DNA of 64,000 nt from Azolla caroliniana (taxonomy: Eukaryota; Plantae; Polypodiophyta): positions 4,464,001 through 4,528,000 of the forward strand of contig JBHGNT010000003.1 in NCBI GenBank assembly GCA_043228905.1, given 5' to 3'. Shown here in pieces: positions 296 to 53,039 of this stretch. The notes below the pieces were generated by a model. The model saw only the letters and a list, made by a program, of their open reading frames with translations, made no database searches and was not told the origin of the DNA. The first letter of the stretch is position 1. Each line of letters begins with the position of its first letter. The position numbers and the translations under genes were made by a program.

Positions 296-998
296 ACGCT
301 TATAATGACCGATATGATAGACAGGATAGATACCGGGACTATAATGGACAGTATGAAAGATATAACCGGGATCATTCCCCTGGTTACAACTACCGACGGG
401 ACGACTATGACAAGGATGCCGCAACAAAAAGAATTTTAGTAAGAAATGTCATTTCAACAAAAAGGGGGGTCATCCACGAGAACCGGAAAAGGGCGGTCCG
501 AGTAGCTAACCAGACCAAAACCAAGCACTTACCCCTGGTCCTCCACTAAGCACACACTCCGAATCCAACAACGCCCAGAAGTCGTACTGCTATCATTGCC
601 GGCAAGAAGGCCACTATAGTAATCAATGTCCAGCGAAGAGCTACGACAAGCGACCAACGGTGAACATGGTAGACGCGGAAGTCGCAGACATACAAGTCAC
701 TACAAGATCAAAAGGCAAAGCCACGGAGTGGGAAACTCAAGAAGTCATCCGGAAGCAGGCAACCGAATGGGTGAAGAAGACAAATTCAAGAAACCCATTT
801 GAACAAGTAAAGGGCGACACAGAACCGGACATCGGTAAATCGGAAGAGACGGCCACACGTTCAACAATCAACAAGCGCGAAGCCGGTAAGAGGGAGCACG
901 AGCCGGCAAACGACAACAACGATGCAACGGCAAGCAGTTCAGTGGCCGGAAAGGACCACAATCCGGATAGGGGTCTAGTGGGACCGGATGCGAATTAA
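296..998 (+). pseudogene. Retrotransposon gag C-terminal remnant (CCHC zinc knuckle)
   Basis: CX2CX4HX4C motif followed in frame by VNMVDAEV...TTRSKGK, typical of a Gypsy gag end. Frameshifted and interrupted upstream. Confidence 0.7.
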
Positions 999-1241
999 CA
1001 AAATCATTGTTAATCTTAAAATAAATATAAAACGAATCAAATCAAATCAAATCAAAGTAAATCATGCAAGGGCGAGGGGTGAACGGACACATGCAAGAAC
1101 AAGGAGTGAACAGGCACTTTGTAAAGGTACGTAGTGGGCTATTAATAGGGTATTAAACCGCCGCCACATGGCACAACATTCTATTTTAGTACACGACGTG
1201 CACATGCGCGGGTAAGAAAAAAATAAAAAACAGGCGCCAAC

Positions 1242-4160
1242 ATGCAACAAGAAGACCCACACCACATAGAAACCCTCACATTTCGCGAACAGAGGAGCAC
1301 AAACGCAGACAGGCGATTGAAGATCAACAGACGCGAGCCCACGCACACAGAGCCTCCTCACACACAACCCTCACCACCACTCACCGACCTCGACGAAGCC
1401 ATGGACTGCCAAGCACTCTCTGAAGCAGCCAAGAAGTGGTTAAGGCAACACGAGTTAGAGGGTTTCCTCACAATCATGGAGGCGCCACCGCACCGGGAGG
1501 CGGAGAAGATAGTCAAAGAAATCGACACGGAGCTGATCACGGAGGAGGCCATCCATGCGTTGATTGGCCTTCCGGAGGGGGGCATCTTCACCATCGACAA
1601 TCCTACCCCGGCGCAGCTCCGAAAATATTTTGGGGAATACTCTCTAGCCAGCAAGGCTTACCCGACTCAGGGCGGCGAAGATCCACTCTTTCGAGATATT
1701 GCCCGTGTGCTCCATGAATTTGGACATGTATACCCTCGACCCCCGTGCATGCCCCAGAACCAGGCCGGCTTAATCATAGCCACATATGAAGACGTAAAGG
1801 TGGACTGAGCGGTACTGATTGCGGATGGCCTCTGTGCGGCCATCGACTCTGTCAAAGGCAAGGAGGGTCGGAAGATATGGACGGCAGTGGCGCAATGGCT
1901 CTACATTGGCGCCACCTATCGAACCCCTCAAGACCACGAAGCGGGGACGAACAACCGAAGGCACCCCGAAAACGGCCTTGAAACAGCAGCAGTTGTTGGC
2001 TTCTAAGGCAACCAAAGGGAAGGCGGCCAAAATGGACCAGGCGGCAAAGGAGCGCGCCAATAGGAAGAGGCAGGCGGAAACACAGGAGTAGCCATAGGTT
2101 TGGCCAATCAAGATCAGGCTTCACCGACCGGTTCAACAAGCGTCGGACCCCTTGGCAGCAAAAATCAACATCGGGACTCAGGAGGAGGAAGCGGAGGAGG
2201 AACCGTTAGAGCACCTCCAGTGGCGCCAGAAGGCAAGCACCTCCGAACAGGACGGGGAGCGTTCGGACCCAAAGAAGGATAGAACGCCTGTACCCCGCAC
2301 TGAGCAGCCTGCACCAAGGATGGAACCGGAACCGGTTCGAACAGAACCGGTCACAGAGCTCCCTGCACAACAACCTCTACCGACGGGTCAGGATACGGCA
2401 AGACCCGAAATGCAAGCGTCGGAAGTACAGTTGCCTACCCCATCGGCAGGCCAAGAGCATTCAGAGGCGGAGCGGCCAACGGAGCCGCAACTAGAAAGGC
2501 AAAGTGGTCACCAACAAGAGCCAGAGTTGCAGCTCGACGCAACCGGACAAAACCGACCACTGGCCAGCAACACCAACAGCCAACCCTCCGGGCAGACGCA
2601 ACAACAGGGCACCGGCAACCAATGGTTTTGGTGGATTGGAGAACAGATTGCCGGAGTGGTACACTACATAGAGGCGGAAGAGAAAGCGTAGATGGACCGG
2701 TTGCTCGTCACAATAGGAGAACTAGAGACGGCCCGGTCAAGGATCCGGAGCCTAGAACAAGACTTGGACCTGGCCACAGAAGAATTGGCCAAAATGGCCT
2801 TAACCGGACCACAACTCCAAGCACCGGTGACTCCGGTCGATGTATAGAATAAAGAAACCATGACACCTGTACATAGCAATAAGACCCCAGAGACAGACCC
2901 TGTCCCGAAGATAGTGGCGACGCAAGCACAAGAGCTTGCTGAATTGAGAGATGAACTGGCCGCACATGAAGCATTACGCACCTGAGAGCAGAACTTGAAG
3001 AAAGCGGCAGAAGAAGAGCTGAACGAAAGACTGCTAAGCACCTCCGTCGGGCAGAAGAGAATCTGCGGAAAGGGCATCAGGCCTATGACCGGCTGAAGGA
3101 GGAGAAAGAGAAGGCGCTGCAAGAAAAGGAGAAGCTGCGACGGATGGCGGAAACAGAGATCGAAAGACTTAAAGAAGAACTCCGTCAACAGAAGGATCGG
3201 GAAGACCGCGCTCGCCGGCAACTCAACCAAAAGCTGAAGCAAAAGACTGATGATTTTGAGCACCTGCACCGGGACTTCAAGCACCTGGATACGGAGCATA
3301 AGAAACAGCAGGAGAAGATGGCAGAGCTCCGGCAGGAGGTGCATCGAGTTGAGACGGCGCTGGCGGAGGAACGGGTTGAAAGAACCACGCTTCTGGAGGA
3401 AGCCGCGCAAGAACGGATGGAGCTGCATAAGCAGCATTATGAAGAGAAGGAAAGAGCGATGATGGTCTTGCAAAGGCTGCAGAACAGCTATCAAACCCAA
3501 TTGTCACATTACCAGGAGCAGGAGGTGGATACGGTGGCACTGATCAAGCAGTTGAAGGACGAACGACAAGCCGCGGAGGACAAATCGAAGATGGGATTGG
3601 AGCAGATCCAGTTCATTGTCCAGGCATGGAGGAACAAGACCAAATGCTTGATTGACGAAAGCTCCACACAATGGTGGGACAAATGGGCAAAGCACACAGC
3701 CAAGCTCCAGTTGCTACAGGCGGACGCGGAAAACCGACAGATGGCGATGACTGCTACATGCTAACGAAGGAGGACTTCACTGCCGTAAGAGATGAGTTAG
3801 CCGAAGATTTTGTAACTCTGGCGGAGGAGTAGTCAGCAGTGGTCAAATCCAGTTTGAAAGCTATGAACGGACCAGGCTACGGAGAGAAGAAGCAAAGCAG
3901 GCGGCGACCGTCAACCTCAGTGATGAGGAGCCATCACCAGATCAAGGACCGGACGGAGACAAGGTCGGGGCGAGTCAACCAGAGTCAAATCCGGCGGAGC
4001 AACTAACAGAGGAATCACTGTCACAACCGCCGGTACCGGGAGCTGAACAAACGCCATCTAAGGAGCAACAGTCGGAGGAGCCGCAGCCACAACAACAACA
4101 GTAGCCACAACAGTAGTCGCATCAACAACAACAAAGTTCCGAACAACCATTGGATACCCT
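1242..4160 (+). pseudogene. Degenerate retrotransposon accessory ORF (globular N-terminus, acidic/Pro-rich linker, long coiled coil)
   Basis: ORF pieces 1242-1808, 2152-2691 and 3144-3764 are separated by single stops or frameshifts. The 3144-3764 piece is an E/K/Q/R-rich heptad coiled coil. The motifs ITEEAIHALIGLPEGG and VD(W>*)AVLI resemble the extra ORFs of plant retroelements. Confidence 0.55.
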
Positions 4161-17190: not shown

Positions 17191-17879
17191 CTAGAGCATG
17201 AACCTTAAGCAAGTGCCCATGTAATCAAGATGGTTGACGATATGTTACAAATCACAAAGATACAACATGGTGCCACACTCGAATACAAATGGGAAGCTTT
17301 TTAGAAAGTCATCCTCTCTTGCACAAACAAATGTTTTTCTACCAACCGCACATCTTAGAAATACACCAAGAAATGTAGTTCAAAGAAAAAATGGTTTGAT
17401 AAAGAATGTCATGAAGTTCAAAAGTAGCTTATGATTTTGGATGTAGTTAAGGATAAAGAAAATGATCAAAAACATTTGCATGAGTACAAAAGGCTTCTTC
17501 AAAGAAAGAGAAGAATAAGGGAAGTTACTCAATAATTTCACCAAACGCAAGAGAAAGCACATGCATGTGCTAAATTTTGGGGAAATCTAAAGGGGAAACG
17601 TTGTCACGAAGTTTCGCGCATGTGTGTTACTTGGGCGGGACCACGGGGGTCTTGGACTAGGGAGTACTCAAGGGATAGAGAAGACCCGAGGTTTGCTTTA
17701 CAACAATACTACTTCTTGACCCCTTCCCGAGCAAGGTCTCGTTGCCCTTTGTTTTGTGAGGCCAGTGGCTCTCGTTGATCACGACTCGTCGACCTTCCGA
17801 GATCACCGTACGAGCCAAGTGACCAAACGGGTACAAGCAAGATGAGCACGCAACATGAACGCACAAGGGGATGATAACA

Positions 17880-18510
17880 CAAACATGAATGTCTGTACGT
17901 CTTTATGAGGAGAAGAGGTGCATGGGTGCGCCCGAACGCTCCCTCGTCACAAGACGTCGAACGTACGAGGAAGACACAAAACACATGCACAAAATGCTCG
18001 TACGCCTTTATGAGAAGGAAAGGTGCATGGGCAAAAGCCCAAATGGTCCCCTCGTCACAAGACGGCCGAACGTACGAGGAAGACACAAACACACACACAA
18101 ATGCTCGTACGCCTTTATGAGGAGGAGAGGTGCATGGGCGTGCCCGAACGGTCCCCTCGTCACAAGACGGCCGAACGTACAAGGAAGACACAAACACACG
18201 CACAAATGCTCGTATGCCTTTATGAGGAGGAGAGGTGCATGGGCAAGCCCGAACGGTCCCCTCGTCACAAGACGGCCGAACGTACAAGGAAGACACAAAC
18301 ACACACACAAAATGCTCGTACGCCTTTATGAGGAGGAGAGGTGCATGGGCATGCCCGAACGGTCCCCTCGTCACAAGACGGCCGAACGTACAAGGAAGAC
18401 ACAAACACACATACAAATGCTCGTACGCCTTTATGAGGAGGAGAGGTGCATGGGCAAGCTCGAACGGTCCCCTCGTCACAAGACGACCGAACGTACAAGA
18501 ATGACACGAA
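17880..18510. repeat. ~108-bp tandem repeat (about 6 copies) inside LTR A; second array at about 29190-29810
   Basis: Unit AAATGCTCGTACGCCTTTATGAGGAGGAGAGGTGCATGGG...CCCCTCGTCACAAGACGGCCGAACGTACAAGGAAGACACAAACAC. Confidence 0.9.
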
Positions 18511-19160
18511 TAAAGAAAGAAGGAGAGAAAGAAACACGAATGATATTGACCAAAGAGGTAAATACGTGTTCGATTCTAACGCAAGAGGACCCTTTATAAA
18601 ATAGGGTTTGTTTACAATGGCAACTTATAGTTAACCACAAGCTCAATCAAAACATAAATATTAAATGCCCTTAGAGACAAGGCAAAACCGAACACGACGA
18701 AGATGAACACACGAGCACCACCAAAATGCCAATCCCAACGAACCACGACCACCCGAACGGCGAGCACACGGGCTCGCAACGACGAACGGGGCTCGCAACG
18801 TCGAACCAACGAAGCTTGGGCTCACGAGCACTTCGAGTGCCGACGCGAATAAGACGAGCACGTGGCGATGGGGGGATGAAGGGGTATGAGATGAAGAGAA
18901 GTGGTGAATAAGGAGATGAAGAGCTTCGAAGGAAAATTGGCGATAGTCTCCTCCTCCCAAAACTACCCCCTCAATGAGCCCCCCTCGACCTCCTTTTATA
19001 GGAAAAAAAGAAGGGGGGGTCGCCAAATTTGTCTTCAATGAAAAAGGAATAAAATTCCTTAAATCACGCTGCACTATAAGACTAGATTCAAACCATGCAC
19101 CTCTAGCTAGTAGTCAATGTGACTATCCACTAGCCCACTAACTCTCTCTTATAATATATA

Positions 19161-19998
19161 CCGGATGAGGAGTACCCGGCTACGGAGAGCCGGATGGTGC
19201 AGGCCCGGTATGAACCGGACGAGGAGTACCCGGCTACGGAGAGCCGGATGGTGCAGGCCCGGTATGAACCGGATGAGGAGTACCCGGCTACGGAGAGCCG
19301 GATGGTGCAAGCCCGGTATGAACCGGATGAGGAGTACCCAGCTACGGAGAGCCGGATGGTGCAAGCCCGGTATGAACCGGATGAGGAGTACCCGGCTACG
19401 GAGAGCCGGATGGTGCAGGCCCGGTATGAACCGGATGAGGAGTACCCGGCTACGGAGACCCGGATGGTGCAAGCCCGGTATGAACCGGATGAGGAGTACC
19501 CGGCTACGGAGAGTCGGATGGTGCAGGCCCGGTATGAACCGGATGAAGAGACATATTTGTGAATATGTTTCTGAGAGCCCATCGTGGCTATATTTGTAAA
19601 TAGCTGAAAAGTCATATTAGTATAAATATGACTTAGGGCAAACTAATATAATGTTGTTATTTTTCTTGTTGGTGCAAGAAGTAGAGACAGTACGTAACGT
19701 TGTACAGAGAGAGAGAAAGAAAGAGGTCGCTGCCTCTGTTGTAACCACCGCCTGTGGCGAAGATCGTGAGTCCGAGGTCGTTGCCTCCGTGAACTCACTG
19801 TTTTGTACATTCTTACATAGTGACAGTTTGCAGCCTCTGGGCTGCCGTGGTTTTTCCCCTAGTTTGGGGTTTTCCACGTAAACCTCCTGTGTATCTTCCT
19901 CTCCTGTGTGTCGTGTTTTTCGTTTCCTTTTTTCTGTGTATGAAAAGAATCTCGGTTGTGGCCGAGCGTTGCGCATAAGGAACGACAAGTTCCCGTCA
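19161..19998 (+). mobile_element. 5'-truncated LTR of the 54-bp-repeat family (copia-like)
   Basis: About 7 copies of a 54-bp unit, then CCGTGGTTTTTCCC...GGGTTTTCCACGT, ending CCCGTCA. Same family as 39364, 50944 and 52187. The 5' end is lost at a deletion junction with LTR A. Confidence 0.85.
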
Positions 19999-21287: not shown

Positions 21288-21629
21288 CGTTTGTCTATGT
21301 ATATTCGCGTCGTTGTTGGCGTCGGGTGCTTACCCTCTCCTGCGTTTTCTGTACATAAGGCGTGGGTTGGGTTGGGCTGTGTGTGCGGGTGTGTGTGTGT
21401 GCGTGAGTCGGTGTTAATCTCTCTCTCTCCCTTCGGTTGCTTCCGGCGTGTCTCTGGGATGCCTCGGTAACGGTGAAGCACGACTTCCTACACTCCATCA
21501 CTCCCTAGTCCAAGACCCCCGTGGTCCCGCCTTTCTCCACGCACGCGCTGTCGTAGTGTAGGTTGCACACTATGTGGAAATTATATTTTTGTCCCTCCGG
21601 ATAGAGAATGGAGTGCTCGGTGAGAACCG

Positions 21630-21745
21630 GAAGGAAACGGCATACCGGCAAGGAGGAAAACGGCATACCGGCAAGGAGGAAAACGGCCGGCAAGGAGGAA
21701 AACGGCATACCGGCAAGGAAGAAAACGGCATACCGGCAAGGAAGA
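21630..21745 (+). repeat. 20-bp tandem repeat AGGAAAACGGCATACCGGCA (about 5 copies) in LTR B U3; also 28140-28260
   Basis: Directly visible. Confidence 0.9.
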
Positions 21746-21800
21746 GCCGGATAAAGAGACATAAATGTAAAAAGAAAGGAAATACTCACTACTGCGCAAG

Positions 21801-21857
21801 GCGTGATTCGAACTCTGCACCTCCACGTTGACAAACCCCAACCTTACCATTACATTA
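21801..21857 (-). promoter_or_regulatory. tRNA-like A-box/B-box module in LTR B U3 (copy at about 28318-28374)
   Basis: Minus strand TAATGTAATGGTAAGGT-18 nt-AGGTG-CAGAG-TTCGAAT-C, with a T-run about 30 nt downstream. Confidence 0.6.
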
Positions 21858-22397
21858 AATTATCTTAAGAGTTTTAAATATAGATTTAATATGTATAAGA
21901 CCTTTATTTATGCATACCTTTATTAAAAGGTAAATCGTGTATTTCTTTAATATATGAAAAAGAAAAAACACGAGACATTAAAAATAACTCATGCACATCT
22001 AGCGTACATGAGCCCTATACTTAGGAAATAAAAAAAGCATCACATGCACATTTAGTGTGCATGAACATATGAGAAAAAGCATGTAGCTATGCTTAGTCTC
22101 TCCCATCACTATATAAGGATGGGGAGCACATTGTAGTTGTTGTTGATTATTTGGATTAAGAATTAATCAATACAAAATTTATTCGTGGGATTCACGATTT
22201 ATACATCTACTTCTCTCTTAACACCCTAAGTACCAATTAATATAGTATACTCGTGTGATTCACGAGTTTCTTATCTTTCTCTTTGCTATTTACTCATAAT
22301 TAATCTCTATCTCACGAACTTCTTTCTCCTAGTCCAAGACCTCTGTGGTTCCCACCCGACTCACGCAACGATCCGGAGCCGAAAGGCACGACACAGT

Positions 22398-22414
22398 TGG
22401 TGAACCCGACGTGA
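22398..22414 (+). other. Primer binding site complementary to tRNA-Trp
   Basis: TGGTGAACCCGACGTGA lies 4 nt after the LTR and matches the plant tRNA-Trp 3' end ...UCACGUCGGGUUCACCA (sequence recalled, not looked up). Confidence 0.85.
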
Positions 22415-22431
22415 AGACGGGTGGCAAGGAG

Positions 22432-24471
22432 ATGGAGGCTCAACAAGCTAACAATATGATGGCGATGTTCGAACGGATGCTTCAAGAACAACGCACGATG
22501 TCGGAGATTTCGGCATCAGTAGAGCGGCTCGTGCAACGCAACGGGCAATTTAATGGTAAGGATGTGTCGCAATATTTGCAGGACTACAAGGCGGAGATGC
22601 TCCGGTGCCGGGCTTCGGAAGGACTGCAAGTGACATCCTTTAACCGGGTGGCGACCGACGGGCTTCAAGGGAGTATCCACGGGTTGCAACAACAAAATCC
22701 GACGTGGGAAGCATTCGAAGAGGCGTTAAAGACCACGTTTGCCATCGAGGACTCCTCCAAGGCAACGCGGAGGGGATTCGAGGATTGGGTGGAAACGTCA
22801 GGTAAGGGGCTGAAGGTCCTCGAAGTATTTTCGACATTCGAAAGTCGGTTCAGGAGGTTGTCCGCGAGAGATCAAACTATTCTTGCACCGGACAAAGTCA
22901 TCATGTTTTTGCGAGCTGTGGACGTCCGGGACCGGAAAGATCTCGGAGTGCTTCTTGAGGACACGGCCACTGAAAGCGGCCTCACCGAAACATGGGAAAG
23001 CGTGCGGGATATCGTCGCGCGGTACACGAAGAGGGGGCAATGGCTTGCCAACGAAGAAAAGAGGGTTTCGGAACCGATTCCGAAACCGAGAACGGGACTG
23101 GAAGACCATCAACCGAGGGCTCGGGAGATTACGGCCGAGAAGGGAGTCGACGCGTCTACGGTGGAGCAGCTGCTGAAGGAGATGGAGAATCTAAAGATCG
23201 CGATGGTGAAGAAGTCGGATGACCGCCCCACAAGCTCCAAATATACGGATCGACGGTGCATATGGTGCGATAGCGCCAAACACGATCGGAGGGATTGCGA
23301 CGACCATAAGGAGGCGCTACGACGGGATCTCATCTACTACGAGGGAAACCGGATTCATTCGATGGACTCTCGGAAGCCACTCCGACCGAACTTCCGGAAA
23401 GGCGGCATGAAGAAGGTGCTCGAGGAGGAGTTAGCGGCAAGAAGCAACTATGCGACAACCGCGGGAATATGTGTCGGGGAGTCATCGGGAGCGAAAGCGT
23501 CTTTCTGGCCGGAGGTGCTAGGAAACACCGAGAAAACCGACTCCAACGATATCCGAAACACCGCGGAAGGCGTCCGGGAAGCTACGGGATGGGAGTGCCC
23601 TGTCGACAAGAATAGCATATACGCCCTGTGTCAATTACATGAGGTGTATGTGGACGAGAAACGACGGCGCACGGAGGATGCGGCCGGACCATCGAAGATA
23701 CCGGAAAGCTGGAACTCCGGAGGTAAGGGAAAAGAAAAGGCGACTCCGGCATTCAAGCTCGCCTCGGACATAGAACAACAAACCGACTTGAAAAGAGTGT
23801 TCGAGGAAAGAATCTTGGATAGCCGGGTAGATTTTTCGCTGCGGGAACTACTCGGAATAGCGAAGAAGGAGTTTCACGATCTTCTTGTGGATCTCGTAAA
23901 AAGGAAGAGACAAAGTACGGAGGAAAATGCTCCAAGGGTGAATGCAAATACCGTTTCAATGAACGACACCGAAGTGGAAGGCGAAATTCCGAACTCCCAC
24001 TATACAAGGCCACACTGGGCACGTGCGACTACGGAGACTCCGGTCCGAATCGGCAACATCAAAGAACCCGTGCTAGCATTGATTGATCACGGATCGGAGA
24101 TCAACTTGATGTCCAAGGAGTTCTACCGAAAGGGGAAGTGGCCTATAAACACCAACCATGGATGGAAGATTCGGGCAGCCACGAAAACGACAGAAGACCT
24201 ATTTGCGGCTTGTCCGGATGTGACGGTAAAGATCGGGGATGTAGAAATTGACCAAAATTTCTTTGTGCAGGATGAGGTTTCACATTCTGTCATCCTCGGC
24301 CAACCCTTTATCACGGCTTCACGGATGGAGACGAAGGTGCTCGATAGTGGTGCGGCTTTTGCGCGAATTCGGAGCCAAAACGGAGGGAAATCCGTCCAAT
24401 TCCTAACGGTGCCGGCAAATCACGAAAGGAACAAGAGGGAACTCTTGTCCCAAGTGAGAATGGATTTTTAA
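22432..24471 (+). CDS. gag: Gag-protease polyprotein of element B
   Basis: Open frame with zinc knuckle CIWCDSAKHDRRDC and aspartic protease LIDHGSEINLM...ILGQPF. ATG at 22432 just after the PBS. Confidence 0.9.
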   Translation: MEAQQANNMMAMFERMLQEQRTMSEISASVERLVQRNGQFNGKDVSQYLQDYKAEMLRCRASEGLQVTSFNRVATDGLQGSIHGLQQQNPTWEAFEEALKTTFAIEDSSKATRRGFEDWVETSGKGLKVLEVFSTFESRFRRLSARDQTILAPDKVIMFLRAVDVRDRKDLGVLLEDTATESGLTETWESVRDIVARYTKRGQWLANEEKRVSEPIPKPRTGLEDHQPRAREITAEKGVDASTVEQLLKEMENLKIAMVKKSDDRPTSSKYTDRRCIWCDSAKHDRRDCDDHKEALRRDLIYYEGNRIHSMDSRKPLRPNFRKGGMKKVLEEELAARSNYATTAGICVGESSGAKASFWPEVLGNTEKTDSNDIRNTAEGVREATGWECPVDKNSIYALCQLHEVYVDEKRRRTEDAAGPSKIPESWNSGGKGKEKATPAFKLASDIEQQTDLKRVFEERILDSRVDFSLRELLGIAKKEFHDLLVDLVKRKRQSTEENAPRVNANTVSMNDTEVEGEIPNSHYTRPHWARATTETPVRIGNIKEPVLALIDHGSEINLMSKEFYRKGKWPINTNHGWKIRAATKTTEDLFAACPDVTVKIGDVEIDQNFFVQDEVSHSVILGQPFITASRMETKVLDSGAAFARIRSQNGGKSVQFLTVPANHERNKRELLSQVRMDF

Positions 24472-24525
24472 AGCGGACTGTTGCGGAGTGGGGAAGTGAT
24501 AGTCCGAGAAGCCCTGATACCCCAC
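24462..24525 (+). promoter_or_regulatory. Predicted -1 ribosomal frameshift signal (slippery GGATTTT + H-type pseudoknot)
   Basis: G_GAT_TTT_TAA ends gag-PR, and the -1 frame is open from here into RT. Stem1 is 24474-24484/24496-24506; stem2 is GTGGGG 24488-24493 / CCCCAC 24520-24525. Confidence 0.75.
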
Positions 24526-27500
24526 ACAGGAAGAAAACTCTCGGAGCAAAACAAGTACGAATCGGCCCGGATGGGGCATCTACGTACACGGCCGTAACCG
24601 GAGGAATGAAGAAACAATACCGACAAGTGGAGGATAAGTTACGGTCGGCATCAATAATAAAAGAAGACGAAGAAATCGTGGGAGTGATCGAGGAAGTGTT
24701 CTATGGGAATACACTACAACGGCTTGAAGAGCTTGCGGAAGATAAAAGCCAAGAGAACCGGGTAGTCCCGGTGGAATCGGTCGAGATGTACGAGATCGTT
24801 GCGAAAATGGGGCCGGATGCGCTCCGCAAAGAAGAAGCAATGGTAAGTACGAAATACAAGACCGTGGAGAAGAAGGTGAAACCGGCCGCGGGACCACTAC
24901 CCGCCGATAGCGAACAAAAGAAGAAAGAAGTCTCGGGAGATCCGACACTTCGGAAGTCCGTGGATATCGGACATGCCTTCACAGATGAGACCCGGAAGAA
25001 ACTTCGGATCGGTGGAGGTGGGTTCCTCTTACAAGAAGAAGAAAAACGGTTTCGAGAGATGTTGGAGCAACATGGCAAAGCATTCGCATTCACATCGAGG
25101 GAGATCGGATGCATTGATCCAAAGATAGTGGAGCCGATGGTGATTTTCACGATTGATCATGTACCGTGGAACCTGAAGCCGATTCCGGTGCCACGGGCGC
25201 ATATTCCGAAAGTCATCGACTTGCTCAAGGAGAAGGTGGCGATGGGGATTCTAGAGCCATCAAGTGCTCCGTACTCAAATCGATGGTTTACGGTTCCGAA
25301 GAAGAATGGGTCACTCCGATTCATCCAAGACTTGCAACCGGTGAACAAGGTCACGATCCGGAACTCGGGAGTCGGTCCGATAGTGGACGAATTCGCGGAA
25401 GCTTTTGCCGGACGTGCGATATACTCCATCGGGGACCTATACTCGGGATATGACCAATTCCAACTAGCCGTGGAGAGCCGAGACATCACTACCATGCGGA
25501 CACCGATAGGACTAGTTCGAATGTGCACACTACCACAAGGAGCGACAAACTCGGTTGCACATATGATGAACGCGATGAACAAGGTGCTTCGAGATTGCAT
25601 CCCGGAGATAACGATGCTGTTTCTAGATGACATTCCGATGAAAGGATGCGTGGTGGAAGAAAAAGATGAGACTATGGATGATCGGGGATGCCGAAAGTTC
25701 GTGGTCGACCATATTCATGATTGCGAGAAAGTGTTGCGAAAGCTAGAAGATGTGCACCTAACACTTTCCGGGGAGAAATCGGCATTCGGGCAAGAAGAAA
25801 TATTGGTGGTCGGACATCTATGTGGACCCTACGGCCGAAGACCGTCACCAACAAAGATCGATGCGATTCAAGCTATGAAGGAAGTATGTGAGTCAACATC
25901 GGAAGTCCGAAGGTTTCTGGGTGCGTGTGCATTCTATCACATATGGATTCCGCACTATGCACATATAGCGGACCCGCTCTATCACTTGTTGCGGAAAGGT
26001 AAGAAATTCGAGTGGAAACCGGAACACACTAAAGCCATGAGGAAGCTCAAGAAGACACTATGGAGGGCGGAATCACTTAGGAAGCCAAGCTACGAGCGGC
26101 CAATCATACTAACGGTTGATACAAGTCCAACCGATATCGGGTGGGTCATCAATCAAGCCGACTCGGATGGTTCGCGGTATCCGATCCGATTTGGAGCAAA
26201 GGTCCTCAATGAAAGGCAACGCGGATATGCACAAGTCAAAAGAGAATTGTGGGGAGTCATGTCGGCGATAAAATCGGATCGGGATTATTTGATCGGAGCT
26301 GAAGTGGTGATCGAGACGGATTGTCTTCCGATACTCGGGATGATGCGGTGTTGTACGATACCGGATGTGGCTATGCTAAGGTGGATTGCATATGTCAAGT
26401 CACTTAATCCGGAGGTTCGACACATCTCGGGGAAGGACAACGCGGTAACGGACATGTTATCGAGGGCGCGGTTTGAAGACGACATAACCGAATCAGATAA
26501 TGAAGAAGTTTCCGAAGACTACTTCACGTCAGAACACATATGCCGAGTGAACGTGATCCGAGAATTCCGGGAAGAAGAATACGAGGGGGAAACCTTGATG
26601 ATCGGGAAGATGCTACAAGAGGTCGAGGATTCAACCAATGATAAAGAAAGGAGAGCCGAGATCTGAAGGAAGAAGAGGCAAGTCCAAAAGTTCTTCTTGG
26701 AAAACGGTTTAATATGGAGGACGCCGAAAAGACCGGATGGGATACCACTTCGAGTAGTCGGGACGAAAGAGCAACGAAACCGGATAATGTCCGAGTTCCA
26801 CGAATCCGATTGGGCTGGACATCGAGGAACATGGGCAACTTTTGTGAAAATCAAGCAAAGGTATTGGTGGAAGAACATGTATAAAGATGTCGCGGAGTTC
26901 ACAGAAAGCTGCGAGAAATGCCAAGTCTACTCCGGGGTCCGACACCGAGATGAGCTGCATCCGACATTCTCACCGACAATCAACTTCAAGTGGATGGTCG
27001 ACATTGTAGCTATGCCGACCGGGATTGGACAAAAGAAATACTTGGTGTTAGCTCGAGAAGATCTCACAAACCAAGTTGAAGGTCGAGCGCTTCGGAGGAA
27101 AACGTGTGCCGCGGTGTGCCAATTTCTTTTGGAAGAAGTGTTTTGTAGGTACGGCTGCGTAGGACAAGTGATTGCGGACCGGGGAGAACTCGACTCGGAC
27201 AAAGCTAGGGGATTCTTCGCCAAACATGGAGTTCGGTTAACGTTGACAACGGCCTACAATCCGGAGGCCAACGGGAAGATCGAACGAGGACATAGTCCGA
27301 TCGTGAAAGCACTTGCGAAGGCATGCGACGGAAGGGTGAAGGATTGGCCACAAATGCTTCCGTATGCACTATGGGCGGATCGGACGACGCATAGCTCCGT
27401 GACAGGTTACATGCCGGCAGAACTCATGACCGGACAAGCACCGGTAATGCCAACGGAAACCGCAATCGCGACATGGACAATACTACCGTGGAAGGAAGAG

Positions 27501-28073
27501 ATGAGCCGGGAAGAACTACTAGCGGTCCGGATACGACAACTGGAGGGAAGACCGAAAGATGTAGCGGAAGCGTCACGCCGACAACAAGAAGCACGGTTCC
27601 GGAACAAAAGCCGGTTCGACACAAAGCACCGACTACGACCGAGGAGGATTGAAGAAGGAGATTGGGTGATCGTCTATGATAGTAGCTTGGACCATCAACA
27701 TACAACGATGCGGAAATTCGCGAAAAGGTGGTTCGGGCCGTACGAGGTTCGGAAGGTCTTTGACAACGGGACGTATCGACTGTCCGAGTTGGATGGAACA
27801 ATACTACGAGTGCCTATAGCCGGGAAGCGGGTGAAGATTTTCAAGAAGCGGACCGACGACAAACCTTATGTGATCCAAGTCGAGGCCGACAACGAGGAGC
27901 AATCGGACGAAGACCACAATGATGCGGGAAGCGAAGAAAGTGGATTACAACTCATAGTCGACATAAGGGGAGAATCGGAGGAAGCTTCGGATGAAGACGG
28001 ATATGAAGAATCAAGAACTTCGGCACATACCGGAGGATGTGCGGGTTTGGAGGGGGCGAGTGTCGTAGTGTAG
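24465..28073 (+). CDS. pol: Pol (RT-RNase H-integrase) of element B, with a single in-frame TGA at 26664-26666
   Basis: RT motifs DLYSGYDQ, LPQGATNS, FLDD; RNase H LTVDTS; integrase HHCC, WMVD...ADRGE...KIE and WFGPY; no chromodomain. ORFs 24606-26666 and 26697-28073 are in the same frame, and the stop is probably CGA>TGA. Confidence 0.9.
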
Positions 28074-31000
28074 GTTGCACACTATGTGGAAATTATATTT
28101 TTGTCCCTCCGGATAGAGAATGGAGTGCTCGGTGAGAACCGGAAGGAAACGGCATACCGGCAAGGAGGAAAACGGCATACCGGCAAGGAGGAAAAACGGC
28201 ATACCGGCAAGGAGGAAAACGGCATACCGGCAAGGAAGAAAACGGCATACCGGCAAGGAAGAGCTGGATAAAGAGACATAAATGTAAAAAGAAAGGAAAT
28301 ACTCACTACTGCGCAAGGCGTGATTCGAACTCTACACCTCCACGTTGACAAACCCCAACCTTACCATTACATTAAATTATCTTAAGAGTTTTAAATATAG
28401 ATTTAATATGTATAAGACCTTTATTTATGCATACCTTTATTAAAAGGTAAATCGTGTATTTCTTTAATATATGAAAAAGAAAAAACACGAGACATTAAAA
28501 ATAACTCATGCACATCTAGCGTACATGAGCCCTATACTTAGGAAATAAAAAAAGCATCACATGCACATTTAGTGTGCATGAACATATGAGAAAAAGCATG
28601 TAGCTATGCTTAGTCTCTCCCATCACTATATAAGGATGGGGAGCACATTGTAGTTGTTGTTGATTATTTGGATTAAGAATTAATCAATACAAAATTTATT
28701 CGTGGGATTCACGATTTATACATCTACTTCTCTCTTAACACCCTAAGTACCAATTAATATAGTATACTCGTGTGATTCACGAGTTTCTTATCTTTCTCTT
28801 TGCTATTTACTCATAATTAATCTCTATCTCACGAACTTCTTTCTCCTAGTCCAAGACCTCTGTGGTTCCCACCCGACTCACGCAACTATCCGGAGCCGAA
28901 AGGCACGACAGCGCGTAACAACGCGACAATGTGTGTTACTTGGGCGGGACCACGGGGGTCTTGGACTAGGGAGTACTCAAGGGATAGAGAAGACCCGAGG
29001 TTTGCTTTACGACAATACTACTTCCCGACCCCTTCCCGAGCAAGGTCTCGTTGCCCTTTGTTTTGTGAGGCCAGTGGCTCTCGTTGATCACGACTCGTCG
29101 ACCTTCCGAGATCACCGTACGAGCCAAGTGACCAAACGGGTACAAGCAAGATGAGCACGCAACATGAACGCACAAGGGGATGATAACACAAACATGAATG
29201 TCTGTACGTCTTTATGAGGAGAAGAGGTGCATGGGTGCGCCCGAACGCTCCCTCGTCACAAGACGTCGAACGTACGAGGAAGACACAAAACACATGCACA
29301 AAATGCTCGTACGCCTTTATGAGAAGGAAAGGTGCATGGGCAAAAGCCCAAATGGTCCCCTCGTCACAAGACGGCCGAACGTACGAGGAAGACACAAACA
29401 CACACAAATGCTCGTACGCCTTTATGAGGAGGAGAGGTGCATGGGCGTGCCCGAACGGTCCCCTCGTCACAAGACGGCCGAACGTACAAGGAAGACACAA
29501 ACACACGCACAAATGCTCGTATGCCTTTATGAGGAGGAGAGGTGCATGGGCAAGCCCGAACGGTCCCCTCGTCACAAGATGGCCGAACGTACAAGGAAGA
29601 CACAAACACACGCACAAAATGCTCGTACGCCTTTATGAGTAGGAGAGGTGCATGGGCATGCCCGAACGATCCCCTCGTCACAAGACGACCGAACGTACAA
29701 GGAAGACACAAACACTCATACAAATGCTCGTACGCCTTTATGAGGAGGAGAGGTGCATGGGCAAGCTCGAACGGTCCCCTCGTCACAAGACGACCGAACG
29801 TACAAGAAAGACACGAATAAAGAAAGAAGGAGAGAAAGAAACACGAATGATATTGACCAAAGAGATAAATACGTGTTCGATTCTAACGCAAGAGGACCCT
29901 TTATAAAATAGGGTTCGTTTACAATGGCAACTTATAGTTAACCACAAGCTCAATCAAAACATAAATATTAAATGCCCTTAGAGACAAGGCAAAACCGAAC
30001 ACGGCGAAGATGAACACACGAGCACCACCAAAATGCCAATCCCAACGAACCACGACCACCCGAACGGCGAGCACACGGGCTCGCAACGACGAACGGGGCT
30101 CGCAACGTTGAACCAACGAAGCTTGGGCTCACGAGCACTTCGAGTGCCGACGCGAATAAGCCGAGCACGTGACGATGGGGGGATGAAGGGGTATGAGATG
30201 AAGAGAAGTGGTGAATAAGGAGATGAAGAGCTTCGAAGGAAAATTGGCGATAGTCTCCTCCTCCCAAAACGTCCCCTCAATGAGCCCCCCTCGACCTCCT
30301 TTTATAGGAAAAAAAGAAGGGGGGGTCGCCAAATTTGTCTTCAATGAAAAAGGAATAAAATTCCTTAAATCACGCTGCACTATAAGACTAGATTCAAACC
30401 ATGCACCTCTAGCTAGTAGTCAATGTGACTATCCACTAGCCCACTAACTCTCTCTTATAATATATAAAATTCTATCTCTATAAATTTATAGCTTGTCTCC
30501 CCTCTACCTTTTATCTCTCCTCTCTCTTACTCTTTGCACGAGCTTCTATACTTCCTTTTCACCCTTTCTTTTCCTTTTTATTTTGCATATGCACAATTAA
30601 TCGCTTTTGTGTGCACACACATTGCACATGCACATTTTTGACCCCCCCTTTCGCCGGTTTTTCCCACCCTCGAGCACGCCACATAATGACAACGTGTTGA
30701 GAGTTATGGTGACTTAACTCTTTATGACTCGTCTATACATTGGAAGAATTTATATGAGTTGTCTCTTGCCGAAAAGATGATGCACTATGGTTCTCTTTCA
30801 CATATGTCTCCCTTCTTTACAATTGAAGATATTTTCATAAGACTTAAGAAATTGGTCTCTCGAATGGCAAGCAATCTTCAATGTATAAGCTATATGTTTA
30901 AAAATTGGCTGAAATGCTCAAATGGATAGGAAAGGAAGCACGTGTATGGATAAGCTATATGTTTAAACATGCATTGCAACATGGTATGTCGTACAATTGG

Positions 31001-39363: not shown

Positions 39364-40118
39364 TGACGGGAACTTGTCGTTCCTTATGCGCAACGCTCGG
39401 CCACAACCGAGATTCTTTTCATACACAGAAAACAGGAAACAAAAAAAAACACGACAGAAAGGAGAGGAAGATACACAGGAGGTTTACGTGGAAAACCCCA
39501 AACTAGGGGAAAAACCACGGCAGCCCACAGGCTGCAAACTGTCACTATGTAAGAATGTACAAAACAGTGAGTTCACGGAGGCAACGACCTCGGACTCACT
39601 CGCCACAGGCGGCGGTTACAACAGAGGCAGCGACCTCTTTCTCTCTCTCTCTCTGTACAACGTTACATACTGTCTCTACTTCTTGCACCAACAAGAAAAA
39701 TAACAACAAAAACATAATATTAGTTTGCCCTAAGTCATATTTATACTAATATGACTTTTCGGCTATTTACAAATATAGCCACAATGGGCTCTCAGAAACA
39801 TATTTACGAATATGTCTCTTCATCCGGTTCATACCGGGTCTGCACCATCCGGCTCTCCGTAGCCGGGTACTCCTCATCCGGTTCATACCGGGCCTGCACC
39901 ATCCGGCTCTCCGTAGCCGGGTACTCCTCATCCGGTTCATACTGGGCCTGCACCATCCGGCTCTCCGTAGCCGGGTACTCCTCATCCGGTTCATACCGGG
40001 CCTGCACCATCTGGCTCTCCGTAGCCGGGGTCCTCCTCATACGGTTTCGGCCTCGGCCGAGTTTGTTCATCGTCACTGATCTTCTCCCTTCCCATCCGGA
40101 GGGACCTGTCTCCCAACA
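39364..40118 (-). mobile_element. Solo LTR of the 54-bp-repeat family
   Basis: TSD GGTGA on both sides; TGTTGGGAGA...CCCGTCA on minus; about 4 repeat units. Confidence 0.92.
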
Positions 40119-50943: not shown

Positions 50944-51603
50944 TGACAGGAACTCAAACGCTCCTTATGCACAACGCTCGGCCACAACCGAGCTTAGAAT
51001 CATACACAGAAAACGGGAAATAAACCACGACACGAAGAAGAAACGAGTGCACAGGATGTTTACGTGGAAAACCCAAAGAGGGAAAAAACCACGACAGCCC
51101 ACAGGCTGCAAACTATCACTATGCCAGAATGTACACCAGTGAGTTCACGGAGGCAACGACCTCGTGCTCACGATCCTCGACACAGGCGGCGGTTACAACA
51201 GAGGCAACGACCTCTTTCTCTCTCTCTCTCTGTACACTGTTACGCACTCACTCTATTCTTGCACCAACAAGAATGACAACCACGACTACAAGTTTGCCCT
51301 AAGTCATATTTATACTAATATGACTTTTCGGCTATTTACAAATATAGCCTCAATGAACTCTCAGAAACATATTTACGAATATGTCTCTTCATCCGGTTCT
51401 CACCGGGTCTGCACCATCCGGCTCTCCGTAGCCGGGTACTCCTCATCTGGTTCTCACCGGGTCTGCACCATCCGGTTCTCCGTAGCCGGGTACTCCTCAT
51501 CCGGTTCTCACCGGGTCTGCACCATCCGGTTTCGGCCTCAGCCGAGTTTGTTCATCGGCACTGTTCTTCTCCCTTCCCATCCGGAGGGACCTGTCTCCCA
51601 ACA
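50944..51603 (-). mobile_element. Solo LTR of the 54-bp-repeat family
   Basis: TSD ATTAG on both sides. Confidence 0.92.
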
Positions 51604-52186: not shown

Positions 52187-53039
52187 TGACAGGAATTGCA
52201 CGCTCCCTATACGCAACGCTCGGCCACAACCGAGCTTAGAATCATACACAGAAAACGGGAAATAATGAACGACACGAAGAAGAGACGAGTACGCAGGATG
52301 TTTACGTGGAAAACTCAAACTAAGGGAAAAACCACAGCAGCTCACAGGCTGCAAACTATCACTATGCTAGAATGTACAACAGTGAGTTCACGGAGGCAAC
52401 GACCTCGCGCTCACAATCCTCGCCACAGGCGGCGGTTACAACAGAGGCAACGGCCTCTCTCTCTCTCTCTCTCTCTCTGTACACAGTTCCACGCTGTCTC
52501 TCTCCTTGCACCAACAAGAATAATCATAACTAAAAGTTTGCCCTAAGTCATATTTATACTAATATGACTTTTCGGCTATTTACAAATATAGCCATGATGG
52601 ACTCTCATAAACATATTTACGAATATGTCTCTTCATCCGGTCTCGACCGGGTCTGCACCATCCAGCTCTCTGTAGTCAGGTACTCCTCATCCGGTTCTCG
52701 ACCGGGTCTGCACCATCCGGCTCTCCGTAGCCGGGTACTCCTCATCCGATTCTCACCGGGTCTGCACCATCCGGCTCTCCATAGCCGGGGACTCCTCATC
52801 CGGTTCTCACTGGGTCTGCACCATCCGGCTCTCCGTAGCCGGGGACTCCTCATCCGGTTCTCACCAGGTTTGCACCATCCGGCTCTCCGTAGCCGGGGAC
52901 TCCTCATCTGGTTCTCACCGGGTCTGCACCATCCGGCTCTCCATAGCCGGGGCCTCCTCATACGATTTCGACCTCGGCCGAGTTTGTTCATCAACACTGT
53001 TCTTCTCCCTTCCCATCCGGAGGGACCTGTCTCCCAACA
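52187..53039 (-). mobile_element. Solo LTR of the 54-bp-repeat family
   Basis: TSD GAAGT on both sides; about 6 repeat units. Confidence 0.92.

What the first reader, a model, noticed from the sequence alone, without database searches (positions are those of the whole stretch)
24462..24525. Virus-like -1 frameshift with an H-type pseudoknot placed after the protease in element B
Seen: gag-PR ends ATG GAT TTT TAA. The -1 frame has no stop from 24465 to the RT ORF, so the apparent 134-nt gap between ORFs can be coding. Five nt after G_GAU_UUU, CGGACUGUUGC pairs with GUGAUAGUCCG (11 bp including G-U pairs), and the loop GUGGGG pairs with CCCCAC 13 nt further on. Established: GGAUUUU next to a stop is the slippery site of dianthoviruses such as RCNMV, and retroelement frameshifts normally lie between gag and pro. 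Inference: here protease would be made 1:1 with Gag and only RT-RH-IN would be down-regulated, an unusual strategy for a plant LTR element.
Basis: partly seen in the sequence, partly recalled or inferred. Interest (0 to 1): 0.7.

Follow-up and report, generated by a model that had tools for sequence, protein, structure and literature searches.

The report
Moss retrotransposon frameshift switch, −1/−2
A young, high-copy jumping gene in what is likely a moss genome keeps a slippery sequence and a predicted RNA pseudoknot right after its protease gene, likely making ribosomes slip one base back to build its copying enzymes, and a recently transposed sister family has altered the signal in a way that likely makes them slip two bases instead.

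Summary
Confirmed and extended. The element (21549-28910) has the marks of the moss Phygy Ty3/gypsy lineage. Gag-PR ends G_GAU_UUU_UAA; RT-RH-IN lies in the −1 frame, open from that site. This is not a private indel: 40 of 40 scored genomic copies are identical across the junction. In 80 diverged relatives, 65 of 67 terminal Asp-Phe pairs read G GAT TTY. Stem 1 (8-bp core) and stem 2 both covary; a pseudoknot was found in 30 of 31 family representatives. −1 ribosomal frameshifting is therefore very likely but untested at the bench; RNA-seq was too thin to test splicing. Protease on the Gag side is not itself unusual (plant Retand/Ogre, Rous sarcoma virus). A pseudoknot-driven −1 shift was not found reported for any plant retrotransposon. 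New here: a monophyletic, recently transposed sister clade (95 sites in this genome) has AG_GUU_UUU, a spacer one base shorter and pol in the −2/+1 frame, with the −1 frame closed. That fits −2 frameshifting, with the arterivirus −2 motif but driven by RNA alone.

The parts
21545..21548 (.). 5' target-site duplication GCGC (NCGN type)
   Evidence: same 4 bases at 28911-28914
21549..22393 (+). 5' LTR (TG...CA, 845 bp)
   Evidence: 99.06% identical to the 3' LTR
22398..22415 (+). primer-binding site complementary to the 3' end of tRNA-Trp
   Evidence: complement found in genomic tRNA genes; 4 of 4 fetched loci called tRNA-Trp(CCA)
22432..24471 (+). ORF1, Gag-protease, 679 aa from the first AUG, ending ...MDF*
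   Evidence: relatives at 39-99% identity are separate proteins ending in or near DF
24034..24420 (+). retroviral-type aspartic protease domain (approximate limits); catalytic motif reads D-H-G at 24085-24093
   Evidence: Pfam Asp_protease_2 E 2e-4, below its cut-off; model pLDDT 61.6 matches Ddi1 and XMRV proteases, E 2e-5 to 4e-4
24462..24468 (+). slippery heptamer G_GAU_UUU
   Evidence: 65 of 67 terminal DF pairs in relatives read G GAT TTY
24469..24473 (+). ORF1 stop (UAA) and 5-nt spacer
   Evidence: the stop varies among TAA, TAG and TGA in relatives
24474..24484 (+). pseudoknot stem 1, 5' strand (conserved core 24475-24482)
24488..24493 (+). pseudoknot stem 2, 5' strand (GUGGGG)
24496..24506 (+). 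pseudoknot stem 1, 3' strand
24520..24525 (+). pseudoknot stem 2, 3' strand (CCCCAC)
   Evidence: partner-swap test 0 of 20000
24639..24797 (+). conserved unnamed domain in the −1 frame between the shift site and RT
   Evidence: aligns across 30 family representatives and liverwort and moss database proteins
24462..26663 (+). pol, −1 frame: transframe region, RT, RNase H
26664..26666 (+). in-frame stop private to this copy
26667..28073 (+). pol continued: integrase (H2C2, rve, SH3-like)
28061..28910 (+). 3' LTR, preceded by a purine-rich tract
28911..28914 (.). 3' target-site duplication GCGC

Best explanation
This Phygy-type Ty3/gypsy element encodes Gag-protease and RT-RH-IN in two overlapping frames, and a minority of ribosomes likely pause at the predicted pseudoknot and slip −1 on G_GAU_UUU just before the Gag-PR stop, making Gag-PR-RT-RH-IN. 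Most would stop at UAA and release Gag-PR, so protease would be made with every Gag and only RT, RH and IN would be scarce. Shown: two-frame layout, conserved heptamer, covarying stems, open and protein-conserved transframe region. Inferred: the slip, its rate, the folding in cells. A sister clade has changed GAU to GUU and has a spacer one base shorter; its pol lies in the −2/+1 frame and is likely reached by a −2 slip (about 0.65).
For: (1) Fixed in young copies: 40 of 40 scored matches, the window's own place among them, are 100% identical over 24380-24680 (best 40 of 1362 candidates). Of 20 full copies, 12 have pol open for 1203 aa from the heptamer; three with identical LTR alignments have both ORFs intact. 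42 of 49 sister copies picked by an upstream peptide pattern have GGATTTY plus stop in the ORF1 frame. (2) Constraint on the RNA, not the peptide: with no nucleotide filter, 65 of 67 terminal DF pairs read G GAT TTY, against a background of GAT 153 of 245 Asp codons and third-position G 817 of 2348; the preceding codon encodes 12 different residues among 35 representatives. (3) Of 63 loci with heptamer and RT on the contig, 59 have pol open in −1 from the heptamer, 2 open in −2/+1, 2 broken. The other two frames carry 2-20 stops each over that stretch. (4) Stem 1: 6 of 11 pairs with double-sided changes, covariation 0.270 against 0.191±0.016, 0 of 500 shuffles; slid controls 22-44% paired against 81.5%. 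(5) Pseudoknot in 30 of 31 representatives at 5 or fewer of 100 shuffles; 26 of 31 score at least 31 against 10 of 798 control windows; stem-2 strands fit their own family better than swapped partners, 0 of 20000 permutations. (6) The transframe domain is conserved, and in 7 of 25 families it lies before the first AUG of the pol frame. (7) GGAUUUU with a 5-nt spacer is a tested −1 site in wheat-germ extract (PMC4737148).
Against: No direct evidence of translation. RNA reads over the junction had depth 2 or less and came from related elements, so splicing is not excluded by data. The relatives are related by descent and most metagenome loci carry similar record prefixes, so counts overstate independence; the shuffle control does not keep relatedness. 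8 of 80 loci had no heptamer in frame near the ORF1 end and 7 of 49 genomic sister copies are altered there; they look truncated or decayed. Eleven database proteins from Riccia and Physcomitrium are annotated as fused Gag-PR-RT; their linkers vary from 71 to 190 aa, as gene models bridging the junction would, but their DNA could not be checked.
Confidence: 0.9

Rival explanations
1. Ogre-like splicing: an intron over the junction removes the ORF1 stop and fuses Gag-PR to Pol.
For: Known for Ogre, a non-chromovirus lineage with the same GAG-PROT / RT split (PMC6317226). Automated gene models fuse the two ORFs. The RNA data here cannot exclude it.
Against: No GTR donor position within 60 nt either side is shared by more than 12 of 30 representatives. 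The would-be intron is stop-free in the pol frame and encodes a conserved domain. An intron would not need a fixed heptamer, spacer and covarying pseudoknot.
Confidence: 0.05
2. Pol is made separately by reinitiation or internal initiation at an AUG after the ORF1 stop; the structure serves initiation or RNA packaging.
For: An AUG lies 134 nt after the stop here, and a Met recurs about 100-110 codons into the pol frame in many families.
Against: The 24606 AUG is not conserved. In 7 of 25 families the first AUG lies after most of the conserved domain, yet the frame is open back to the heptamer. It does not explain the G GAT TTY constraint.
Confidence: 0.03
3. A one-base indel or decay in this copy, or an assembly error.
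For: This copy does carry other damage (stop at 26664-26666).
Against: Identical junction in 40 of 40 scored copies; same layout in families with RT regions only 66-83% identical.
Confidence: 0.005
4. For the sister clade only: pol is reached by a +1 slip (on UUU_N or at the UAG stop), or by splicing at CAG|GU, rather than by −2.
For: +1 and −2 reach the same frame and cannot be told apart from DNA. The UUU_UAC variant allows a clean +1 re-pairing of tRNA-Phe. CAG|GT resembles a donor site.
Against: 28 of 30 fetched copies have UUU_GAC, which gives poor +1 re-pairing (inference). The conserved part is AG_GUU_UUU, the PRRSV −2/−1 site; the spacer is one base shorter, as −2 shifts prefer (PMC7618472). 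Stem 1 starts inside the stop codon, too close for a stop-dependent +1 shift (inference). The nearest AG after that GT is only 12 nt on.
Confidence: 0.3

Closest known systems
Phygy lineage, non-chromovirus Ty3/gypsy of Physcomitrella (PMC6317226; passages and supplement 5 read)
   Same: 4-bp NCGN target duplication, tRNA-Trp primer site, compact interior, no chromodomain or extra RNase H hit.
   Different: That survey lists the Phygy ORF layout as not determined. The element is 7362 bp, just under the listed 7656-9968 bp. No reference Phygy sequence was available for a tree.
Alpharetroviruses RSV/ASLV (PMC12789967 and PMC5009743; passages read)
   Same: Protease encoded in Gag, then a −1 shift into pol with a pseudoknot stimulator: the same logic.
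   Different: Retroviruses with env; a different heptamer (recalled); a different lineage.
Umbravirus, dianthovirus and luteovirus −1 sites (PEMV2, RCNMV, BYDV; PMC4737148, passages read)
   Same: GGAUUUU (PEMV2), 5-nt spacer, stop at or next to the site, plant ribosomes.
   Different: They use a bulged hairpin plus a long-distance pairing; here a local H-type pseudoknot.
Plant Retand and Ogre (PMC6317226 supplement 5)
   Same: [quoted passage not shown]
   Different: Retand has an in-frame stop and Ogre an intron; neither is listed with overlapping frames at this junction.
Arterivirus nsp2 −2/−1 site (PMC7618472; passages read)
   Same: AG_GUU_UUU, identical to the sister clade's site.
   Different: PRRSV has no downstream RNA structure and needs a protein stimulator; the moss clade keeps the pseudoknot, and its whole pol would depend on the shift.

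Membership tests
Ty3/gypsy LTR retrotransposon | LTRs, primer site, order GAG-PR-RT-RH-IN | tested here: met
Phygy lineage | 4-bp target duplication of type NCGN | tested here: met
   GCGC here; ACGT in the copies where both ends were resolved; NCGN flanks in the sister clade
Phygy lineage | tRNA-Trp primer-binding site | tested here: met
Phygy lineage | no chromodomain, no additional RNase H, no extra ORFs | tested here: met
   Pfam scan of the three ORFs; coding region fills the interior
Phygy lineage | length 7.66-9.97 kb | tested here: inconclusive
   7362 bp here, about 7.9 kb in the sister clade; a range seen in one species, not a hard limit
Phygy lineage | groups with reference Phygy RT sequences in a tree | not testable with these tools
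   reference set too large to read; closest named proteins are from Physcomitrium and Riccia
−1 programmed ribosomal frameshift signal | X_XXY_YYZ-type heptamer in the zero frame (G_GA accepted as XXX) | tested here: met
   PMC5009743 passage
−1 programmed ribosomal frameshift signal | stimulatory structure 5-9 nt downstream | tested here: met
   predicted H-type pseudoknot with covariation; spacer range from PMC7618472
−1 programmed ribosomal frameshift signal | conserved −1 frame open from the site | tested here: met
   59 of 63 loci
−1 programmed ribosomal frameshift signal | transframe product measured | not testable with these tools
   needs a reporter, proteomics or ribosome profiling
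−2 programmed ribosomal frameshift signal (sister clade) | RG_GUU_UUU-type site, downstream ORF in the −2 frame, short spacer | tested here: met
−2 programmed ribosomal frameshift signal (sister clade) | direction shown to be −2 rather than +1 | not testable with these tools
   needs the junction peptide
Ogre-type spliced junction | non-coding intron between GAG-PROT and RT, removed in transcripts | tested here: inconclusive
   region is open and protein-conserved; RNA depth too low to test splicing

The most novel reading that the evidence does not exclude
One bryophyte retrotransposon lineage has switched frameshift direction in evolution. Most families use a pseudoknot-driven −1 shift on G_GAU_UUU after the protease. 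One recently transposed clade moved to AG_GUU_UUU with a spacer one base shorter and makes its whole polymerase by a −2 shift driven by RNA structure alone: a natural test of the mRNA-tension model, and a −2 shift in a retroelement that the reviews read here do not list.
Probability: 0.62. Interest if true: 0.85.

Novelty: new variant of a known kind. Interest (0 to 1): 0.72.

Why it matters
Plant retroelements are generally described as single-ORF or spliced, not recoded (PMC5580714); a 2016 review lists only +1-frame cases in plants (PMC5009743). This gives a plant retrotransposon lineage a virus-like −1 pseudoknot signal and fills the 'not determined' layout for Phygy-type elements. It also suggests why database gene models fuse these ORFs with variable linkers. 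The −1/−2 pair of natural cassettes, alike in structure but differing in one slip-site base and one spacer base, makes a standing mechanistic question (what sets frameshift direction) directly testable on plant ribosomes.

Tried and rejected
Private indel: rejected. A second recoding site at the RH/IN stop: rejected, private to this copy. RNA evidence: no RNA holder listed; two lays gave junction depth of 2 or less from related sequences and no joints in the RNA runs, uninformative. Viral-contig scan with P0011 found no relative. Rfam had no credible match in 24300-24700. Plain folding of the hairpin was not significant. A first pattern search used a wrong spacing and missed the family. The PDB sequence search gave only Ty3 protease at E 0.88; the fold search settled the domain. 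Gao et al. 2003 (PMC1370496) was not held and is cited only through PMC5009743. Three look-ups of earlier scan findings returned nothing. Rows left out: 10 of 35 representatives from the stem-1 alignment (broken or most divergent), 4 of 35 from the pseudoknot search (broken or deleted), 8 of 30 from the tree (short Pol). RNA-polymerase slippage on a 5-U run was considered and set aside as too short (own knowledge, not tested).

Full report
Observation. ORF1 (first AUG 22432) ends ATG GAT TTT TAA at 24471. The −1 frame is open from 24348 to 26663 and holds RT and RNase H; integrase follows in the same frame after a stop at 26664-26666. Five bases after G_GAU_UUU an 11-bp stem can form, and its loop can pair with CCCCAC 13 bases beyond it.

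The element. It spans 21549-28910 with LTRs 99.06% identical, a GCGC target duplication and a primer site matching tRNA-Trp. NCGN duplications and a tRNA-Trp primer are the marks of the moss Phygy lineage, whose ORF layout the reference survey left undetermined (PMC6317226, passages and supplement 5). The named relatives are Physcomitrium and Riccia proteins, so the host is likely a moss; I did not identify it. The last domain of ORF1 is a retroviral-type protease by fold, with an unusual D-H-G motif kept in 26 of 30 representatives.

Not an indel. The 40 best of 1362 candidates in the genome are all identical over 24380-24680. Of 20 full copies, 12 have pol open for 1203 codons from the heptamer, 11 of them with ORF1 also intact; several have identical LTR alignments. 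The RH/IN stop is private to this copy. Among 49 sister-family copies chosen by an upstream peptide pattern, 42 have GGATTTY plus stop in the ORF1 frame; 7 are altered. In the protein database, 14 of 30 hits end in DF and three more have DF five residues before the end; the rest end elsewhere and look truncated or frameshifted.

The constraint is on the RNA. Eighty metagenome loci were fetched. With no nucleotide filter, 72 had the anchor motif, 67 had DF in the last 8 codons, and 65 of these read G GAT TTY; background use is GAT 153 of 245 and third-position G 817 of 2348. The two exceptions are a single altered copy and a member of the clade described below. Of 63 loci with both heptamer and RT, pol is open from the heptamer in −1 in 59, in −2/+1 in 2, and broken in 2. 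The other frames carry 2-20 stops over the same 120-140 codons. That stretch encodes a domain conserved as far as liverwort proteins, and in 7 of 25 families it precedes the first AUG. The loci are related by descent, so the 25-35 dereplicated representatives are the fairer unit.

The pseudoknot. On 25 representatives, stem 1 has an 8-bp core paired in 23-25 of 25; 6 pairs show double-sided changes, the covariation score beats all 500 shuffles, and slid registers pair 22-44% against 81.5%. A constrained search found an H-type pseudoknot in 30 of 31 representatives; 26 of 31 score at least 31, against 10 of 798 control windows from the same loci. Stem 2 changes sequence on both strands together (GUGGGG/CCCCAC, GCGGGG/CCCCGU, GGGACA/UGUCCC, UGAGGG/CCCUCG, GCGAGA/UCUCGC, CAAGG/CCUUG), and own partners beat swapped ones in all 20000 permutations.

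Mechanism. The likely route is −1 slippage on G_GAU_UUU while the ribosome meets the pseudoknot, giving mostly Gag-PR and a little Gag-PR-Pol. Heptamer, spacer and adjacent stop match tested plant-virus sites (PMC4737148 passages; PMC5009743 passages). Splicing and internal initiation fit the conservation poorly but were not excluded by RNA data: junction depth was 2 or less. Eleven annotated fused proteins exist; their linkers range from 71 to 190 aa against 180 here, which suggests gene-model bridging, unchecked.

A clade in another frame. Two metagenome loci (L165, L171) have CAG GTT TTT NAC TAG with pol open in the −2/+1 frame. A pattern built from them matches 95 sites in this genome and none in the control. 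In 30 fetched copies the protease is in frame 0, the −1 frame stops at once in 28 and within 30 codons in all 30, and the −2 frame is open for at least 150 codons in 16. In an independent sample picked by an upstream peptide (30 of 203 fetched), 8 copies of this family have pol open in −2/+1 across the junction, one with a changed slip site, and a ninth is internally deleted. Of 10 full copies, chosen among those that looked open, 6 have both ORFs intact (736-738 and 1154-1155 aa); LTRs are 99.4-100% identical with NCGN flanks. The clade is one branch (100/100) among −1 families in a midpoint-rooted tree of 23 rows, and its two subfamilies are 86% identical in RT. It keeps the pseudoknot. The distance from heptamer to the conserved GG of stem 1 is 5 nt in 2 of 2 such loci against 6 nt in 54 of 59 −1 loci. 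AG_GUU_UUU is the PRRSV −2/−1 site, and −2 shifts are optimal at spacers 1-2 nt shorter than −1 shifts (PMC7618472 passages). I infer a −2 shift (about 0.65); +1 cannot be excluded from DNA.

Comparison and novelty. Protease on the Gag side is known: Retand and Ogre in plants, RSV/ASLV in retroviruses (PMC12789967 passages). Overlapping frames are listed for plant Tcn1 and Selgy, but before the protease and with no mechanism given. Eight answered full-text searches and passages of PMC7466625, PMC2864245, PMC11963269 and PMC12786077 showed no report of a frameshift signal in Phygy or bryophyte elements. The −2 cases named in PMC5009743 are phage Mu, arteriviruses and Trichomonas vaginalis virus 1. 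Subscription papers, Gao et al. 2003 and the large supplements of PMC6317226 could not be read and may bear on this claim.

Verdict. The feature is real and lineage-wide, very likely a programmed −1 frameshift: a new variant of a known kind. The likely −1 to −2 switch in a sister clade is the more surprising part. Interest 0.72.

Noticed in passing
G000, e.g. L214, L271, L273, L277; metagenome loci L165, L171: Sister clade with AG_GUU_UUU, a spacer one base shorter and pol in the −2/+1 frame; 95 pattern matches in this genome, young intact copies.
   Followed up: yes
window 24085-24093: Protease catalytic motif is D-H-G instead of the usual D-T/S-G (recalled); DHG in 26 of 30 representatives, DQG in 3. 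Activity untested.
   Followed up: partly
window 24639-24797: Unnamed conserved domain at the start of pol, before RT, shared with liverwort proteins; no Pfam hit.
   Followed up: partly
L172, L176, L184, L187: Divergent families with the ORF1 stop moved 1-5 codons past the heptamer and variant sites G_GAU_UUC, G_GUU_UUC and G_GGU_UUU, all with pol in −1.
   Followed up: partly
window 17615-19160 and 28922-30466: The element sits between two 1.55-kb direct repeats (98.5% identical) that contain 105-bp tandem units; likely nested in another repeat element, inserted 11 bp before the second copy.
   Followed up: no
window 19101-19604, 39722-40014, 51291-51529, 52535-52936: 54-bp tandem arrays shared among several dispersed copies in both orientations.
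   Followed up: no
G000 C8:17.80-17.82 Mb and C16:4.99-5.11 Mb: Dense clusters of matches to the tRNA-Trp 3' end, many spaced about 1.2 kb apart on C8; possibly tandem tRNA arrays.
   Followed up: no
window 510-3764: Several ORFs with a zinc-knuckle-like motif and a coiled coil, probably part of another retroelement; no clear Pfam hit in those scanned.
   Followed up: no
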